DNA of 55,140 nucleotides from a virus (taxonomy: Duplodnaviria > Caudoviricetes): positions 1 through 55,140 of the IMG/VR virus record IMGVR_UViG_3300009488_000001. One strand, written 5' to 3'. Below, piece after piece: positions 38,978 through 46,749 of this stretch (within the stretch, counting starts at the first letter, position 1; every line of letters begins with the position of its first letter). The translations under genes and the position numbers were made by a program. The notes below the pieces were generated by a model. That model was not told the DNA's origin, did no database searches, and saw only the letters and a program-made list of their open reading frames with translations.

Positions 38978-40165
38978 TTACCAAACTCGGTCTTTTGCTG
39001 CTAAAACATATCTCATGACAACCAGATCGTCAGGTTCATGACCATCCGGTTCAGGGATTATTTTCCCATTTGGATCAACTTTCCAAAACCACATCTCACA
39101 ACCATTTCTAAATGTTGTACTGCGAGGTGTGCAAAATAGATTATATCCTTTTACTAATTTAATACCTTCTTTTTGTCCTCCTGGTTTCTTTGTTATTCCG
39201 TAGATATTATACCCGTACTTTCTCAGGTCTAATATTTCTTTTCGCCCGGCACTGTCCGCAATGATTAAATGACCTTTTGGGAATTCTACTTCTTCCATTT
39301 TGTCAACAATACTCATTCGCTCGGTTCCTTCTAGTTTTTCAGGCAACAGATTATTTTCCGAAAATACAGTATCAATATATAGATTTGCACCATCCATCCA
39401 CATATTAACTAAATTGGTCGGATCTGGACTTAATCCATAATCCTGGCCTGAAGGGATGCGGCTAGCCGTTTCTGGCAAGTCCTCCATATTAAACATATCA
39501 TAACTATAAATAGCCCGCTCTGAATATGTTCCAGTCTGTCCAAGTCCATAAACATTATACCATTGAGTGTCATGTTTACGGCTCTCAATCATATTTATTT
39601 CAGATTGAGGACACGCTTCATTGTCTCGGTATGTAGTAATAATTAGTTCTGATTCCTGGATGCCATTTTCATCTCTGAGTTTGGGAATTTCAGTGTGTGC
39701 CCAAAATTCATAATCGGGGTTGAAATCTATATAAACATCTTCGTGTGTTCGCCCTATGTATGTACTTGCAACCGTCCAACCTACTTTGTTAGCCTCGTTA
39801 ATATATAAAATATCCCTTCTTTTACTTTTCCCGGAATTACTACCTTTTTTTGGATTGTCTTTTATATATCTGAATTGTATGGTAGATTGTCCCCATTTGA
39901 AATACTTGTCTTTTTGGTTATAGTAGTCTGCCATAAAATCCATTCCGTTCATGGCAAACATATCCGTATAATCTTTTATTACTCCATCCAATAAGTTGTC
40001 GTAAGTATCGGACATTATTGTAATTAACCGGCGTTTTTCTAAGGCTTTTTCGAGTAAGATTAATGCTACTGCCCAGTTTTTCCCTGACCCGGATCCCCCC
40101 TGAAGTACTTTAATCCGCTTCTTTACATTTTGAATTTTCCAGTATGTAGAAGTCTTTAGTATCAT
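38978..40165 (-). CDS. terL: Terminase large subunit (PBSX-like)
   Basis: Walker A QGGSGSGKN, Walker B LYINEA, DFNP, G.DYG...DP, ADSA, C-terminal D...D..RY. Confidence 0.93.
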   Translation of the reverse strand: MILKTSTYWKIQNVKKRIKVLQGGSGSGKNWAVALILLEKALEKRRLITIMSDTYDNLLDGVIKDYTDMFAMNGMDFMADYYNQKDKYFKWGQSTIQFRYIKDNPKKGSNSGKSKRRDILYINEANKVGWTVASTYIGRTHEDVYIDFNPDYEFWAHTEIPKLRDENGIQESELIITTYRDNEACPQSEINMIESRKHDTQWYNVYGLGQTGTYSERAIYSYDMFNMEDLPETASRIPSGQDYGLSPDPTNLVNMWMDGANLYIDTVFSENNLLPEKLEGTERMSIVDKMEEVEFPKGHLIIADSAGRKEILDLRKYGYNIYGITKKPGGQKEGIKLVKGYNLFCTPRSTTFRNGCEMWFWKVDPNGKIIPEPDGHEPDDLVVMRYVLAAKDRVW

Positions 40166-41178
40166 ATATTAATCCATCCAGTCCATTATCGTTTTATTAT
40201 CCATAGAACTATCATATACACAATATTTAGTTGCGGATGGATGCATGTTTGCAATGTTTCTTTTATCGGCATCGCTTAACACAATCATTATGGGATGATC
40301 TTCACTGTCGTAATATGTGTCTCCTATTTTTACTTTCATGGCCTTATGATTTATGTGCGGTTTGTTTTCTGGGTTTGGAATGAAGCTAATCGCAACTAGC
40401 CTATGAACTTGAAATCTCCTTGTCCATTTTATTAAATTCTGCTTTAGTTATTTGCTCTCTGGTTATATCTAAAACATCCCCCACATTGCCTTGTATTTCT
40501 TCGCCTTTGTGATTGTAATATTTATCATTCTCTGAGAAAATGCATATTCCAAGCATTGCACTCTTTAAATCGGTATAGACATGAGGTAAATTCTGCCATT
40601 CGGATACTTCTGCTTTCCACCACAAATGCCCTTTAGTGTATGTGCCTAACCTTTGTATAGTTATATGCCCACACGATTCTTTTATCCGGTAATCTGATTT
40701 TTGTTTAGTCATGGCTCTATAGTTAGTTTTATTGTTGTTTTGTTTTTTGACATTACAAAATACATTTAGTTTTTAATGCTAATTGCGGTAAAGATGCATA
40801 ACCTACCTGTATTGTATCGAAAAGATATTGTTTTATTGATAGCTCTATATTTGTATAATGCTTTCGTTTTGGTACTCCCAAAATATACAATCCGTTGTAA
40901 TCATACGTACTATCGCAATAATGAATTGGCAATGGATTTCTATTCCGCGATATATTAAAGTCAGAAAGATTCATATCCCGATGTGGCACTCTTCCGCATA
41001 ATTGGTCAGGCATAAACGACTTTCCCATCTTGGAAACCCAAATATGTATTTCGCCGGGCTTTCTTTTCACCCTCTCTATGGTCAATAAAACGGGGGTATC
41101 TATTTTTAATTCATAATCCGATTTCATAATCTCAATTGTTATAGTTAAATTTATATTCAAAGATGTTTCCTTTGTTAT

Positions 41179-41493
41179 TTAATTAAGTGGTATTAATTCA
41201 GATTGAGTATCATAAACAAATCTATATTTATGAACAATTGAATGAGTTAAATACGGATTTGTAAATACATTGCCTTTGATTATGCAACATTTTATATCTT
41301 CCATTTTAGCTGATCCGAAGTCGTGTGAATCGCCGTAAAAAGTAAAAATATTGGCTTTAAGATTATACCATCCTCCTCCTTTTACCCTGTCTTTGTCAAT
41401 TACTAAATCTTTATGGTAAGTGCATTTTGATAGTATTAAACAGTCGCCAAGTTCGCTATCGGTTTCTATTATAAATTTTGGAAATTTGTCCAT
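41179..41493 (-). CDS. Hypothetical protein
   Basis: 104 aa with H..L...GGGW...YGDS.DFG motif. Confidence 0.6.
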   Translation of the reverse strand: MDKFPKFIIETDSELGDCLILSKCTYHKDLVIDKDRVKGGGWYNLKANIFTFYGDSHDFGSAKMEDIKCCIIKGNVFTNPYLTHSIVHKYRFVYDTQSELIPLN

Positions 41494-42666
41494 AACTTTA
41501 CTTTCTTTTATTAATGATAGTTTTCATTACTGATTCATCAATATGACTTGCTTCATCAATACATATTTTAGAAGCATGATGTCCGTTATCCCTGGCGATA
41601 TCACTACAATCCACCTCCCCCTTGATCCGCTTAATAAATTTACATCCCATATATTCAAACGGGAATTTTCGCCTTTTGAGTGCGTTAAATGGGAAATGAT
41701 GTGCTTTGCAGATATCTGTTAAGGCTCCCCAAATTTCATAGAGATTTTTTTCGGGGTTGTGGAGTATTATTCTTTTTTGTTTTTGCGGCATGATTATTTA
41801 TTTTTAATTACTCCCGTACACTTAACCCACTTCCAGAATCTATTTACTTTTCTAAAATGCTTGCATTTAATGCAGCCATCAGCCCCTATTTGTTGTCCCG
41901 TATTCAAAACCATGCATTGAGTTAAGCATCGGTATCCTACATCTAGATTACGCGTTTTGTATTTATATTTATTTAACTTCATTGTATTGTAATTTTAACT
42001 ATTAGCAGTCTCCCAATTTTCACCATCATTACCAGTTACCTGTTCTTTTGTACATCTACTACACTTTATCTTGCGATGTGATGGATAAATGGGGTTTTGA
42101 TTTGTTATTATATAATCATGTATATTAAATATCACACACAATAATACGTGAAGCAAATTTGTTCTTTTTTTTGTGTTGCTTTTTGTATTCATATTTTAAA
42201 ATTAATGCCACTTTATTTTCTTTTACCACCAAAACCGGAAACCTCGAAAGGAACCCGGTTGGATTATCCGCAGAACTTAGATTAAAATTCTATCTCTATA
42301 TCGTTATCACTTGTATGATTAATCCAATGTACTGAATTGCATCCCTCTCCGTTTTTATCCCATACATTAAATGAGCTATATTCTTCATGTCCTGGTTTGT
42401 GCATTCCTATTTCATACATTAATGACTGCAACTCTTTGCCGAGCTCTGCTATTCGTTGTTTTTTTTCTTTAATGGTTTTCATATTGAATTTTTAATATGA
42501 CACTAATATAATGTGTTTATATTTAATATCCTACTTAAATAATGAAAATAATGCAATAATATTTATTATTTGGGTGGGTTTTTGGTAGGCGGCCAATGGT
42601 TCTATTCCACATTGGAGTGGCTTTTCTTTGTTTCACCCGTGGTAGGTGGTCATTATTCCATTAGAT

Positions 42667-43158
42667 TTATTCTTTTTCATCGCCATTCAACGGCTTTCCG
42701 TTGTCATCAAATTGTTTTGAGCCGTTTTGGAATACTATCTGAGGGGTTTTATTATCAACTTCTTGCTTGTCTATTAATCCTAAATCGCGGGCTATAATGT
42801 TGTCTTTTAATAATCCAGCAGCGGCTCCCTCAAACTTCTGAGTCCTTATTACATCACGTATGCGTGTAGCGATTGCAAAATAGTCTTTATACGATTCATT
42901 CTTATCTGAGCAATAATTATCATACGTTTGTCTTTCTACATTCAAAAATATATACAACCCTGTCATGGTCATTGCGCGCATTTTTGGAACTGAGAATTTT
43001 TTTCCGCCTTGCACTATTAGCTCTAATAGTGGATTATCGAGACACCATTTGAAATACTGGCACGCTGCATCCCATAAGATTTCCGGAGTTTCAAATATTT
43101 TCCCTCTTCCATGTGTCGATCTAGCTTCCCAGAAATTATTATACAGTGGAGCTGCCAT
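42667..43158 (-). CDS. terS: Terminase small subunit (P22 gp3-like)
   Basis: MAAP..N.FW..RS.HGR..IF..PE.LW.A...YF.W; RAMT..GL; QKFEGAAAGL...NIIARDLGL.DK. Confidence 0.92.
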   Translation of the reverse strand: MAAPLYNNFWEARSTHGRGKIFETPEILWDAACQYFKWCLDNPLLELIVQGGKKFSVPKMRAMTMTGLYIFLNVERQTYDNYCSDKNESYKDYFAIATRIRDVIRTQKFEGAAAGLLKDNIIARDLGLIDKQEVDNKTPQIVFQNGSKQFDDNGKPLNGDEKE

Positions 43159-45470: not shown

Positions 45471-45592
45471 TGCAGGGAGGTACTTTCTTCGCTCCCTGCG
45501 TAGCTTTTAGGCTACCATTTTTAAGTTGTTGTTTACTTTTACCTTAGCTCTCTATTATCCCAATTATCATCTGTCGATCCCAATTCAGCCCC
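45471..45592 (-). ncRNA. ssrA: Two-piece tmRNA, coding piece
   Basis: Starts GGGGCTGAATTGGGATCGAC; tag frame (A)VNNNLKMVA* at 45536-45507 with the stop in a GTAGC/GCTAC hairpin loop; terminal GCAGGGAG/CTCCCTGC hairpin. Confidence 0.85.
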
Positions 45593-45625
45593 ATTTATTT
45601 GACTTGCAGGGACGGCGATCGTTAA

Positions 45626-46129
45626 TCACTCCGCCCCCACTAATGTTTTCAATATCCTTCCACATGATATATCCCTGACGTATTGGTATGGCACGTTAAG
45701 ATCTATTGACACCTGTTTTAATGTCCTCGATTCTCTATTAAATACAGCGGCTTTAACCTCAATTGCTTTGGTCTTGGGAATTTTGGTATTTAATGGGTAA
45801 TGATTTATTTCAAACCCCCTACCTTTAGGTATAATTAATCTGCCCTTATTAAAAGCATCCTTCATATTATCAGAATGACTTCCTATAAATAAATGATCTG
45901 GATTTACACATTTAGGATTATCACATTTGTGACAAACATATAATCCCTCTGGCATGTCTCCATTGTAAATCATCCAAGATAGTCGGTGAGCACCAAGTGA
46001 TTTACCTTCAACTTTAATTATACCATATCCCGTCCTGAGACCTGCTTGCCATTCCCAGCATCCTGTTTTTTGTTTTTTAATCTTAGAAAGGAATCTACCC
46101 TTAACTTTCTCGTCTATCATATAATTCAT
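45626..46129 (-). mobile_element. Free-standing HNH homing endonuclease gene between the tmRNA pieces
   Basis: CWEW, GYG, AHRLSW, VCHKCDNPKCVNPDHL..G...DN..D, C-terminal HTH-like segment. Confidence 0.9.
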
Positions 46130-46173
46130 TTTGTGTAAATATATGAACCTTTTTTACAAAAGCAAGTATTTTC

Positions 46174-46237
46174 GGGAGCTAGCGGGAGTCGAACCCGCGT
46201 CCAAACAATATCGCAAATAATTTCAACGAACTAAAAT
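46174..46237 (-). ncRNA. ssrA: Two-piece tmRNA, acceptor piece
   Basis: ...GGAC-GCGGG-TTCGACT-CCCGC-TAGCTCC pairs with GGGGCTG of the coding piece, including G3:U70. Confidence 0.85.
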
Positions 46238-46239
46238 AG

Positions 46240-46313
46240 AGCCTAATAAGGGATTCGAACCCCTGCCCCGATCATTACAAGTGAGCTGCTCTAACCAACT
46301 GAGCTAATCAGGC
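46240..46313 (-). tRNA. tRNA-Thr(TGT), CCA not encoded
   Basis: GCCTGAT TA GCTC AGTTGGTTA GAGC A GCTCA CTTGTAA TGATC ... AGGGG TTCGAAT CCCTT ATTAGGC T; one anticodon-stem mismatch. Confidence 0.9.
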
Positions 46314-46611: not shown

Positions 46612-46724
46612 TAGAGAGGGTAGGATTTGATACCTACAACAAGTTCCTGCGATCGTAGCCAACTTAGAGCCTAGCCTGCATTTAGGCAGCTTCCAACAGG
46701 TATGTGTATTTCCACCACCCCTCT
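46612..46724 (-). ncRNA. tRNA-like RNA with an expanded, branched anticodon region
   Basis: Acceptor AGAGGGG/CCTCTCT, D-like GTGGAAATACAC, T-arm GTAGG-TATCAAAT-CCTAC; about 65-nt central domain. Confidence 0.55.
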
Positions 46725-46749
46725 ATTCTATATTTTCAAAGAACTAATT

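What the first reader, a model, noticed from the sequence alone, without database searches (positions are those of the whole stretch)
45471..46237. Phage-encoded, circularly permuted, pseudoknot-free minimal two-piece tmRNA
Seen: on the minus strand the tmRNA 3' end (GGAC, T-arm GCGGG-TTCGACT-CCCGC, acceptor TAGCTCC; 46237-46174) comes first, and the 5' end (GGGGCTGAATTGGGATCGAC, from 45592) comes 581 nt later. The pieces pair along nearly the whole acceptor piece: GGGGCUG/UAGCUCC with the Ala determinant G3:U70, AGAUGAUA/UAUUGUUU, UUG/CGA, GGAUAAU/AUUAUUU and GAGCUAAGGU/AUUUUAGUUC. After the last helix come AAAA and the frame GTA AAC AAC AAC TTA AAA ATG GTA GCC TAA, giving tag (A)VNNNLKMVA, with the stop in a hairpin loop as in tmRNA helix 5. 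The two pieces total about 185 nt, leaving no room for pk1-pk4. Known: permuted two-piece tmRNAs occur in alphaproteobacteria and some cyanobacteria and betaproteobacteria; Bacteroidota tmRNAs are one-piece with tags ending like YALAA. Inference: an independently permuted, extremely reduced tmRNA that lets the phage rescue ribosomes or redirect tagging with host SmpB. I cannot confirm novelty without a search.
Basis: partly seen in the sequence, partly recalled or inferred. Interest (0 to 1): 0.92.

Follow-up and report, generated by a model that had tools for sequence, protein, structure and literature searches.

The report
Phage two-piece tmRNA split by HNH
A 55-kb phage carries a split, rearranged, pseudoknot-free gene for tmRNA (the RNA that frees stalled ribosomes), with a homing-endonuclease gene between its two halves; it belongs to a small phage family of such RNAs and is not a one-off invention.

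Summary
On the minus strand a tmRNA 3' half (46239-46174) directly follows tRNA-Thr. A tmRNA 5' half with a short tag frame (45592-~45471) lies 581 nt downstream, and the two halves pair as described.

- The 581-nt spacer is an intact HNH homing-endonuclease gene. This may be why ARAGORN and Rfam see no tmRNA, although ARAGORN also failed on spacer-shortened joins.
- The locus is not unique. I found 7 distinct homologous loci in viral contigs (L141, L196, L197, L198, L087, crAss-like cr125_1 and cr114_1). All have the same permuted order and no room for PK1 (36-42 nt from GAC to the resume codon). All keep U-5 A-4 A-3 before the resume codon and encode no CCA. Most are called by ARAGORN or Rfam RF04321, and the crAss-like ones are annotated as tmRNA in GenBank.
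- The window alone has C instead of the otherwise invariant discriminator A73.

The inter-piece helices covary: 96.3% of 109 cells pair, against 41-57% in slid controls.

Verdict: a genuine two-piece, pseudoknot-free phage tmRNA gene, a new variant of a known kind. Whether this copy is still charged and active is open, and independent permutation at this locus is not supported.

The parts
46240..46313 (-). tRNA-Thr (anticodon UGU). Its 3' end directly abuts the acceptor piece, and its 3' processing would create the acceptor piece's 5' end (inferred).
   Evidence: ARAGORN. Rfam RF00005, 62.5 bits. A tRNA or tRNA-like element sits in the same position in L198 and L141.
46174..46239 (-). tmRNA acceptor piece (about 66 nt). 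It comprises P2c' 46237-46228, loop GUUGAA 46227-46222, P2b' 46221-46215, P2a' 46210-46203, GGAC 46202-46199, T-arm 46198-46182, acceptor 3' strand UAGCUCC 46181-46175, and position 73 = C at 46174. No CCA is encoded.
   Evidence: Sequence. RF00023 local hit on the T-arm. Model R1 from 7 relatives scores 61.1 bits, E 4e-13. Pair table.
45593..46173 (-). Intervening segment (581 nt) between the two pieces, absent from the mature RNA by analogy with other permuted tmRNA genes. It measures 65-167 nt in the 7 relatives.
   Evidence: Coordinates.
45626..46129 (-). Intact 167-aa HNH homing-endonuclease ORF inside the intervening segment.
   Evidence: Pfam HNH_3, E 1.1e-12. 50 homologous loci were found in viral contigs, and 2 of them (L035, L038; 54-55% identity) lie directly downstream of one-piece tmRNA genes.
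45471..45592 (-). tmRNA coding piece (about 122 nt). It comprises P1 5' strand GGGGCUG 45592-45586, D-loop-like AAUUGGGAUCGAC 45585-45573, P2a 45572-45565, P2b 45560-45554, AGA 45553-45551, P2c 45550-45541, AAAA 45540-45537, the tag frame, a P5-like hairpin 45515-45500, and a terminator-like hairpin 45499-45472 with a U-rich tail to about 45461.
   Evidence: Sequence. The exact 20-mer is shared with bona fide tmRNAs. Pair table. Top hit of model R2, but weak: 9.1 bits, E 0.08.
45507..45536 (-). Tag reading frame GUA AAC AAC AAC UUA AAA AUG GUA GCC UAA, giving (A)VNNNLKMVA. The stop codon lies in the hairpin loop.
   Evidence: The frame is fixed by homology. It is preceded by U-5 A-4 A-3 as in all 7 relatives, and the last codons align in frame with L141 and L197.

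Best explanation
This is a circularly permuted (two-piece) tmRNA gene of a phage-borne, pseudoknot-free family. A free-standing HNH homing-endonuclease gene sits in the one segment that the mature RNA discards.

Proposed mechanism (the homology and the structure are shown; every processing and activity step below is inferred):
1. The locus is transcribed on the minus strand together with tRNA-Thr.
2. tRNA 3' processing releases the 5' end of the acceptor piece.
3. The acceptor 3' strand pairs with GGGGCUG of the coding piece, giving a 7-bp stem with G3:U70. About 25 further base pairs (P2a, P2b, P2c) hold the two RNAs together.
4. RNase P cuts at G1 of the coding piece, the 3' trailer is trimmed and CCA is added.
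5. Host AlaRS charges the RNA. Host SmpB delivers it to stalled ribosomes, since the phage has no smpB.
6. Translation resumes at GUA, 4 nt after the last helix, and adds (A)VNNNLKMVA.

The HNH gene is a selfish passenger. Relatives of it sit just downstream of tmRNA 3' ends in other phages, and in a permuted gene that position falls inside the intervening segment.

This copy has C rather than A at position 73, so charging may be weakened. I hold the identity as a tmRNA gene at about 0.95, and present-day trans-translation activity at about 0.55-0.6.
For: - Both tRNA-like halves are present and complementary, with G3:U70.
- Rfam tmRNA matches the T-arm.
- Model R1, built without the window, finds the acceptor piece at 61.1 bits, E 4e-13. 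Unrelated tmRNA 3' ends sharing the same 24-mer score 38-53 bits.
- There are 7 distinct homologous loci with the same gene order. 6 of the 7 are called tmRNA* by ARAGORN.
- I scanned 4 of the 7 with Rfam. L141 scored 66.3 bits, L087 61.4 and L024 50.9 on RF04321. L023 did not pass.
- In the anchored table of 9 rows the window pairs at 37 of 37 positions, and the relatives show compensatory changes in P1, the T-arm, P2a, P2b and P2c.
- On an independent MAFFT alignment of the window plus 5 relatives, 96.3% of 109 cells pair. 7 of 19 pairs change on both sides, 0 of 500 shuffles reach this, and slid controls give 41-57%.
- The resume codon lies at nt 57-62 in all 8 sequences, with invariant U-5 A-4 A-3. 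The window's last five codons, including the stop, align in frame with those of L141 and L197.
- The stop codon sits in a hairpin loop and is followed by a terminator-like hairpin.
- The only difference in a second assembly, at 46181, changes G7:U66 to G7:C66 and keeps the pair.
- HNH is identified by Pfam at E 1.1e-12. Homologues lie 16-80 nt downstream of one-piece tmRNA genes in L035 and L038.
- There is a precedent for an ORF in the intervening segment: L105.
Against: - Position 73 is C. It is A in 8 of 8 relatives and in 80 of 80 other phage tmRNA 3' ends listed. [quoted passage not shown]
- The resume codon is GUA, whereas all 7 relatives use GGC.
- The tag is the shortest of the family and ends in VA, not AA. 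6 of the 7 relatives end in AA and one in AV.
- The intervening segment is 581 nt against 65-167 nt in relatives.
- ARAGORN finds nothing, not even on three spacer-shortened joins. Rfam finds only the T-arm.
- The P2 duplex energy is unexceptional for this AT-rich genome.
- The coding piece alone matches the family model only weakly.
- None of 5 whole records of related phages has any tmRNA match.
- There is no expression evidence of any kind.
Confidence: 0.6

Rival explanations
1. It is a recently disabled copy. The locus descends from a working two-piece tmRNA gene, but arrival of the HNH cassette at the 3' end of the acceptor piece removed the discriminator A and the short hairpin that follows it in relatives. 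The RNA is then no longer charged efficiently and the gene is decaying.
For: The window is the only one of 9 family rows, and the only tmRNA 3' end against 80 others, with a non-A discriminator. The change lies exactly at the boundary where the HNH-bearing segment begins. The window also has an odd resume codon and the shortest tag. A73 matters for AlaRS (PMC9976931).
Against: No other defect is visible. All 37 anchored pairs are intact, which is better than any relative. The tag frame is open and in register, and the hairpins and terminator are intact. A very recent loss, however, would leave exactly this picture, so sequence alone cannot exclude this rival.
Confidence: 0.25
2. It is a decoy. 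The two-piece RNA binds host SmpB, and perhaps ribosomes, but is poorly charged because of C73. It would then inhibit host trans-translation rather than perform it.
For: [quoted passage not shown] The window has C73. The phage has no smpB.
Against: A decoy needs no tag frame. Yet the frame, its upstream UAA context, the stop in a hairpin loop and the long P2 are all kept. The relatives have A73 and ordinary tags ending in AA, so the family as a whole looks like working tmRNA.
Confidence: 0.1
3. It is not a tmRNA gene at all. The 3' half would be an attP-like copy of the host ssrA 3' end used for integration, and the 5' half a chance or captured fragment.
For: tmRNA genes are common integration sites (PMC11915505). 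Three of the exact 20-mer matches in bacterial or metagenome DNA are chance hits in GC-rich coding sequence: L011, L012 and L016.
Against: No tyrosine integrase was found in the complete genome. The two halves pair over P1 plus about 25 bp, with covariation. Seven homologous loci show the same two-piece order, tag frame and terminator.
Confidence: 0.03

Closest known systems
PK1-less permuted tmRNAs of viral contigs L141, L196, L197/L199, L198 and L087 (IMG/VR) and of crAss-like phages cr125_1 (NC_055900.1) and cr114_1 (NC_055897.1), the latter two annotated as 'transfer-messenger RNA, SsrA'
   Same: The gene order is acceptor piece, spacer, coding piece. P2 has three segments, with a 6-nt loop (GUUGAA in 5 of the 7) opposite a 3-nt loop. 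Only 36-42 nt separate GAC from the resume codon. U-5 A-4 A-3 precedes the resume codon and no CCA is encoded. Tags are short, and a tRNA or tRNA-like element lies directly upstream in L141 and L198.
   Different: The window has a 581-nt spacer holding an HNH gene, against 65-167 nt in relatives. It has C73 instead of A73 and resumes at GUA rather than GGC. Its tag ends in VA, its 5' D-loop region reads UCGAC rather than UUGAC, and ARAGORN and Rfam do not detect it.
Two-piece (circularly permuted) tmRNA of Alphaproteobacteria, some Betaproteobacteria and Cyanobacteria (Rfam RF01849, RF01850, RF01851, merged as RF04321)
   Same: The gene is permuted and yields two base-paired RNAs. The tRNA-like domain carries G3:U70, and P2 forms between the pieces. 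This description comes from PMC11915505 and PMC9004378.
   Different: Those forms keep pseudoknots or clade-specific structure and usually encode CCA. In the window no Rfam permuted model reaches even E 10. Whether the phage family shares their permutation event was not resolved.
Phage-encoded two-piece tmRNAs of marine phages (Melnitz, pelagimyophages, cyanophages; PMC9004378)
   Same: They are phage-borne permuted ssrA genes. That paper reports 53 of 133 unique phage tmRNA structures as two-piece by ARAGORN. My loci L002, L015, L018 and L019 are of this kind and share the window's exact 5' 20-mer.
   Different: Those sequences match the alpha-type model and have a PK1-sized segment and ANDN-type tags ending in ALAA. 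Melnitz adds a glutamine riboswitch.
Mitochondrial reduced tmRNAs (Rfam RF02544)
   Same: PMC11915505 describes the gene as 'usually permuted'. That these RNAs are strongly reduced and lack pseudoknots is my recollection, not taken from a call.
   Different: They are organellar, many lack a recognisable tag frame, and RF02544 gave no hit in the window.
tmRNA genes interrupted by group I introns that carry LAGLIDADG homing-endonuclease genes (PMC11915505)
   Same: A homing-endonuclease gene sits inside a tmRNA gene in a part that is removed from the mature RNA.
   Different: There the endonuclease lies within a self-splicing intron in the T-loop. Here it is a free-standing HNH ORF in the spacer of a permuted gene, and no intron is involved.

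Membership tests
tmRNA (ssrA), permuted two-piece form | Seven-bp acceptor stem with G3:U70, formed between the 5' end of the coding piece and the 3' end of the acceptor piece | tested here: met
   GGGGCUG pairs with UAGCUCC at 7/7 positions, with G3:U70. The pairs covary at positions 5-7 across 9 rows and in the RNAalifold run on 7 relatives.
tmRNA (ssrA), permuted two-piece form | T-arm with the tRNA-type T-loop, preceded by GGAC and matched by GAC after a D-loop-like GG segment | tested here: met
   RF00023 local match of 18.5 bits, E 3.5e-5. The genome search with RF00023 gave 23 bits. GGAC and GAC are both present.
tmRNA (ssrA), permuted two-piece form | Discriminator A73, followed by an encoded or added CCA | tested here: not met
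   Position 73 is C (46174). It is A in 8 of 8 relatives and in 80 of 80 loci. CCA is not encoded, as in the 8 relatives. A second assembly shows no indel here.
tmRNA (ssrA), permuted two-piece form | Gene order is acceptor piece, then intervening segment, then coding piece, on one strand | tested here: met
   The spacer is 581 nt.
tmRNA (ssrA), permuted two-piece form | Long P2 helix joining the tRNA-like domain to the tag region, formed in trans between the pieces and supported by covariation | tested here: met
   25/25 anchored pairs in the window. For P2b, P2c and the T-arm, 96.3% of cells pair, 7 of 19 pairs change on both sides, 0 of 500 shuffles reach this, and slid controls give 41-57%. 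P2a was counted only in my own anchored alignment, which allows one fitted indel.
tmRNA (ssrA), permuted two-piece form | Tag reading frame with a resume codon in the conserved upstream context, and an in-frame stop | tested here: met
   U-5 A-4 A-3 is invariant in 8 of 8 sequences. The resume codon lies at nt 57 against 58-62 in relatives. The stop lies in a hairpin loop. That this upstream context is a general tmRNA rule is recalled knowledge.
tmRNA (ssrA), permuted two-piece form | Tag ending in a hydrophobic or Ala-Ala degradation signal | tested here: inconclusive
   The window's tag ends in MVA. Relatives end in AA (6 of 7) or AV (L087).
tmRNA (ssrA), permuted two-piece form | Recognition by the curated detectors (Rfam RF04321 or RF00023 gathering score; ARAGORN) | tested here: not met
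   Nothing was found in the window or on spacer-shortened joins with ARAGORN. Of the 4 relatives scanned, 3 pass RF04321: L141 at 66.3 bits, L087 at 61.4 and L024 at 50.9. L023 does not pass. Rfam could not be run on a spacer-free version.
tmRNA (ssrA), permuted two-piece form | Pseudoknots pk1-pk4 | tested here: not met
   Only 4 nt separate P2c from the resume codon, and only two hairpins follow the stop. The RF04321 model does not include pseudoknots (PMC11915505), so they do not define the permuted model.
tmRNA (ssrA), permuted two-piece form | Processing into two RNAs, alanylation, SmpB binding and tagging | not testable with these tools
   No listed sequencing run is on record as RNA. 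No smpB was found in the phage.
HNH homing endonuclease (Pfam HNH_3) | HNH_3 domain in an intact ORF | tested here: met
   PF13392, E 1.1e-12, 47.8 bits against a cut-off of 24.8, in a 167-aa ORF without stops. Cleavage and homing were not tested.

The most novel reading that the evidence does not exclude
The window and its relatives would form a further, phage-borne lineage of two-piece tmRNA that works with no pseudoknot at all, the tag starting 4-14 nt after helix 2. That would show in nature that PK1 is dispensable. In this phage a tmRNA-3'-end-seeking HNH endonuclease has lodged in the only disposable segment of the gene. The [tmRNA 3' end]-HNH-[tmRNA 5' end] order could even be a relic of the tandem duplication of a tmRNA-HNH unit that created a permuted gene.
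Probability: 0.25. Interest if true: 0.7.

Novelty: new variant of a known kind. Interest (0 to 1): 0.45.

Why it matters
This locus shows a blind spot of the standard detectors. ARAGORN and Rfam both miss a tmRNA gene whose intervening segment holds a homing-endonuclease gene.

The family around it has 7 further distinct loci, including crAss-like gut phages. It offers natural tmRNAs with no pseudoknot between helix 2 and the tag. That makes the long-argued need for PK1 directly testable with small two-piece RNAs of about 190 nt.

I found no paper describing this family in the six answered literature searches. Supplementary tables of the tmRNA database paper, which I could not open, may list such sequences.

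The C73 copy is also a natural test of how much the discriminator matters for tmRNA charging. The HNH family found beside tmRNA 3' ends points to a homing target worth assaying.

Tried and rejected
- **ARAGORN.** It gave no tmRNA on the window, on the native 1.1 kb, or on three in-silico spacer-shortened joins.
- **Rfam.** At gathering threshold it found only the tRNA. In E-value mode it found only the T-arm plus chance hits. Rfam could not be run on a spacer-free version, because the tools take only contiguous references and the script box has no Infernal.
- **Exact-pattern scans.** Scans for the window's 28-nt 3' end and for the 5' end plus the start of P2a found nothing in viral contigs.
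- **Relatives found through the small terminase.** The 7 loci hold no tmRNA, and 0 of 5 whole records match RF00023.
- **The 20-mer in species genomes.** It gave 2 hits, both chance matches in GC-rich coding DNA.
- **RNAduplex genome scan.** The true partner is not the best-scoring site, so energy alone does not support the pairing.
- **blastn of the pieces against isolated phages.** The coding piece gave nothing useful beyond the tRNA-like end. The acceptor piece led to the crAss-like loci.
- **Coding-piece model R2.** Default filters found nothing. With filters off the hit is weak but top-ranked.
- **Alignment A2.** MAFFT misaligned P1 of the window, so P1 was not counted with the tool there. 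P2a has two registers and was counted only in my script.
- **Expression.** No RNA holder was listed. The single DNA run, laid as contigs, shows one base difference and no joint that skips the HNH gene. That run may be the sample the window was assembled from.
- **attP reading.** Rejected; no integrase was found.
- **smpB.** None in the phage.
- **Flanking genes of the family loci.** They show little similarity to the window: only L197/L199, at 38-44% identity over three proteins located elsewhere in the genome.
- **Independent permutation of the family.** Not resolved. I held no Bacteroidota genome handle for comparing host tmRNAs.
Full report
**What is in the sequence**

The window is a complete virus record of 55,140 bases with direct terminal repeats. 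Its large terminase is closest to those of Polaribacter phages at 42.9% identity, and most other hits are phages of Bacteroides and Flavobacterium. A Bacteroidota host is therefore likely but not shown.

On the minus strand the elements run as follows:
- tRNA-Thr(UGU) at 46313-46240.
- Two bases later, a 64-nt stretch ending in GGAC, a perfect T-arm and UAGCUCC (46237-46175), followed by C at 46174.
- An intact 167-aa ORF at 46129-45626 that is an HNH endonuclease (Pfam HNH_3, E 1.1e-12).
- At 45592, GGGGCUGAAUUGGGAUCGAC, followed by strands complementary to the first stretch.
- AAAA and the frame GUA AAC AAC AAC UUA AAA AUG GUA GCC UAA (45536-45507).
- A small hairpin with the stop codon in its loop.
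- A GC-rich hairpin with a U-rich tail (45499-~45461).

**What the standard detectors say**

ARAGORN reports no tmRNA. Rfam at gathering threshold reports only the tRNA. In E-value mode it reports only an 18.5-bit local match of the tmRNA model to the T-arm (E 3.5e-5). ARAGORN also fails when I shorten the spacer in silico.

By energy the AU/GU-rich inter-piece duplex is not special in this 33% GC genome. It scores -17.6 kcal/mol against a mean of -10.9 (sd 2.75) over 21,988 windows, and at least ten other places score better. The case for the structure therefore had to come from comparison with other sequences.

**Finding relatives**

The exact 5' 20-mer occurs in:
- 2 viral contigs.
- 10 metagenome contigs.
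- 2 species genomes.

Nine of the twelve viral and metagenome hits are real tmRNA genes and two were not recognised:
- L002, L014, L015, L018, L019 and L020 are permuted tmRNA genes.
- L003 passes RF00023 as a one-piece tmRNA (86.7 bits). L013, L017, L021 and L022 carry a near-identical sequence; I did not scan them with Rfam, and ARAGORN calls no tmRNA in any of the five.
- L016, like both species-genome hits L011 and L012, is a chance match in GC-rich coding DNA.

Phages related through the small terminase carry nothing similar.

blastn of the acceptor piece against isolated phages led to crAss-like phages cr125_1 and cr114_1. Their GenBank records annotate a tmRNA that ARAGORN calls permuted, with tag GNFYVTDYTRIAA.

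A scan for the shared 24-nt 3' motif returned 116 stretches. Of the 80 classified, ARAGORN called 43 one-piece and 25 permuted, and called none at the motif in 12. Among those 12, L141 proved to be a close structural homologue of the window, and Rfam RF04321 accepts it at 66.3 bits. A last scan built on the shared GUUGAA-NUUAUU motif added L196, L197/L199 and L198, all called tmRNA* by ARAGORN. L087 belongs to the family too.

**The family**

Together with the window there are 8 distinct sequences (9 rows counting L026, which is nearly identical to L023). All share these features:
- The order is acceptor piece, spacer, coding piece.
- P2 has three segments around an internal loop, 6 nt on the acceptor side (GUUGAA in the window, L141, L196, L197 and L198) and 3 nt on the coding side.
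- Only 36-42 nt separate GAC from the resume codon, which leaves no room for PK1.
- U-5 A-4 A-3 is invariant before the resume codon, which lies at nt 57-62 of the coding piece.
- No CCA is encoded.
- Tags are 9-15 residues long.

A tRNA or tRNA-like element lies directly upstream of the acceptor piece in the window, L198 and L141. This fits a role of tRNA processing in making its 5' end (inferred).

**Covariation**

In my anchored table the window forms standard pairs at all 37 positions: P1 7, T-arm 5, P2a 8, P2b 7 and P2c 10. The relatives show two-sided changes in every helix. That alignment was anchored on the loops and allows one fitted indel in P2a.

As a less fitted check I used a plain MAFFT alignment of the window with five relatives. 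The pair-counting tool for the T-arm, P2b and P2c gave:
- 96.3% of 109 cells paired.
- 7 of 19 pairs changed on both sides.
- 0 of 500 shuffles reaching the observed values for four of the five measures, and 3 of 500 for the fifth (further pair types).
- 41-57% paired when the partners were slid by 1-3 columns.

RNAalifold on seven relatives without the window recovers P1 and the T-arm with compensatory changes.

**Model-based tests**

A covariance model of the acceptor piece built from the seven relatives finds 46170-46239 at 61.1 bits, E 4e-13; the next hit in the window scores 13 bits. Much of that score comes from the tRNA-like end. Other tmRNA 3' ends that share the same 24-mer score 38-53 bits, and the L081 group scores 60-66.

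The sequence-only model of the coding piece finds the right place first, but weakly: 9.1 bits, E 0.08, and only with filters off.

**What is unusual in this copy**

1. *The spacer.* It is 581 nt and holds the HNH gene, against 65-167 nt in relatives. In cr114_1 the spacer holds a tRNA-His. An unrelated permuted phage tmRNA (L105) has a spacer of about 375 nt with a roughly 120-aa ORF, so genes in this segment have precedents.
   - Of 50 loci encoding homologues of the HNH protein, two of the closest (L035 and L038, 54-55% identity) lie 16-80 nt downstream of one-piece tmRNA genes.
   - Four more lie among tRNA or tRNA-like genes.
   - I infer a homing endonuclease that settles next to t(m)RNA 3' ends. 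In a permuted gene that position is the spacer.
2. *Position 73.* It is C. It is A in 8 of 8 relatives and in 80 of 80 loci, and a second assembly shows no indel there. [quoted passage not shown]
3. *The tag.* The resume codon is GUA rather than GGC, and the tag (A)VNNNLKMVA is the shortest in the family and ends in VA. Its last five codons, including the stop, still align in frame with those of L141 and L197.

The one difference between the window and the other assembly (46181, U66 to C66) keeps the pair with G7.

**Interpretation**

The locus is, with high confidence, a two-piece, pseudoknot-free tmRNA gene of a phage family, carrying a selfish HNH gene in its disposable segment.

Whether this copy is still active cannot be settled from sequence. 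Its helices, frame and terminator are flawless, which argues for function. C73 argues for weak charging, and a recent loss would leave no other trace.

My estimates are about 0.6 for active, 0.25 for recently disabled and 0.1 for a decoy of host SmpB. The phage has no smpB and no integrase.

**Relation to what is known**

- Two-piece tmRNAs are established in three bacterial groups and are modelled by Rfam RF04321 (PMC11915505, passages read).
- Phage-encoded two-piece tmRNAs are in print (PMC9004378, passages read).
- I found no paper on a pseudoknot-free family in crAss-like or other Bacteroidota-type phages in the searches. For those I saw only the listings, apart from the papers named above. 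The database paper's supplementary tables were not available.
- The claim of an independent permutation is not supported for this locus. For the family as a whole it stays open. The family shares the GUUCGUUGAAG strand with a PK1-bearing permuted group (L081 and others), and it shares its 5' 45 nt with a one-piece phage tmRNA (L003).

Noticed in passing
window 46614-46729 (minus strand): In the roughly 500-nt non-coding stretch upstream of tRNA-Thr lies a 115-nt element closed by a 12-bp stem. Its folding energy is -40.9 kcal/mol, z -3.1 against shuffles. No Rfam family matches at E up to 1.
   Followed up: partly
L023 1291-1459 and L024 1022-1189 (crAss-like phages cr125_1, cr114_1): RAGATH-9 RNA (Rfam RF03146, about 154 bits) lies upstream of the permuted tmRNA gene in both phages. 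In cr125_1 it abuts the ARAGORN tmRNA start. In cr114_1 it ends about 255 nt upstream (1189 against 1445), with an annotated CDS between. It may be a processing or regulatory partner.
   Followed up: no
L024 1546-1618: The intervening segment of the cr114_1 permuted tmRNA contains a tRNA-His gene.
   Followed up: no
L105, about 520-905 in the orientation: A beta-like permuted phage tmRNA (ARAGORN tmRNA*, tag ANDSQFALAA) has an intervening segment of about 375 nt with an open frame of about 120 aa. The protein was not searched.
   Followed up: no
L014 (1360-nt metagenome contig): An alpha-like permuted tmRNA (tag ANDNFAPSGFALAA) has only about 28 nt between GAC and the resume codon, so it too lacks PK1. 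ARAGORN misses it, while RF04321 gives 77.4 bits.
   Followed up: partly
L035 1085-1485 and L038 1074-1420: One-piece phage tmRNA genes are followed within 16-80 nt by close homologues (54-55% identity) of the window's HNH endonuclease.
   Followed up: partly
window 46181: The contig of the one public run that holds the locus reads G where the window has A (plus strand). That changes U66 to C66, and the pair with G7 is kept either way.
   Followed up: yes
window 38978-43158: The small terminase (42667-43158, Pfam GP3_package) and the large terminase (38978-40165) are separated by about 2.5 kb holding seven small ORFs of 62-135 aa with no assigned function.
   Followed up: no
L198 (ARAGORN 'tRNA-???', 897-970 on the complement) and L141 3941-3999: Odd tRNA-like genes sit directly upstream of the acceptor piece. 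L198 has one with a two-base anticodon call, and L141 has a 59-nt element scoring 33 bits on the tRNA model.
   Followed up: no
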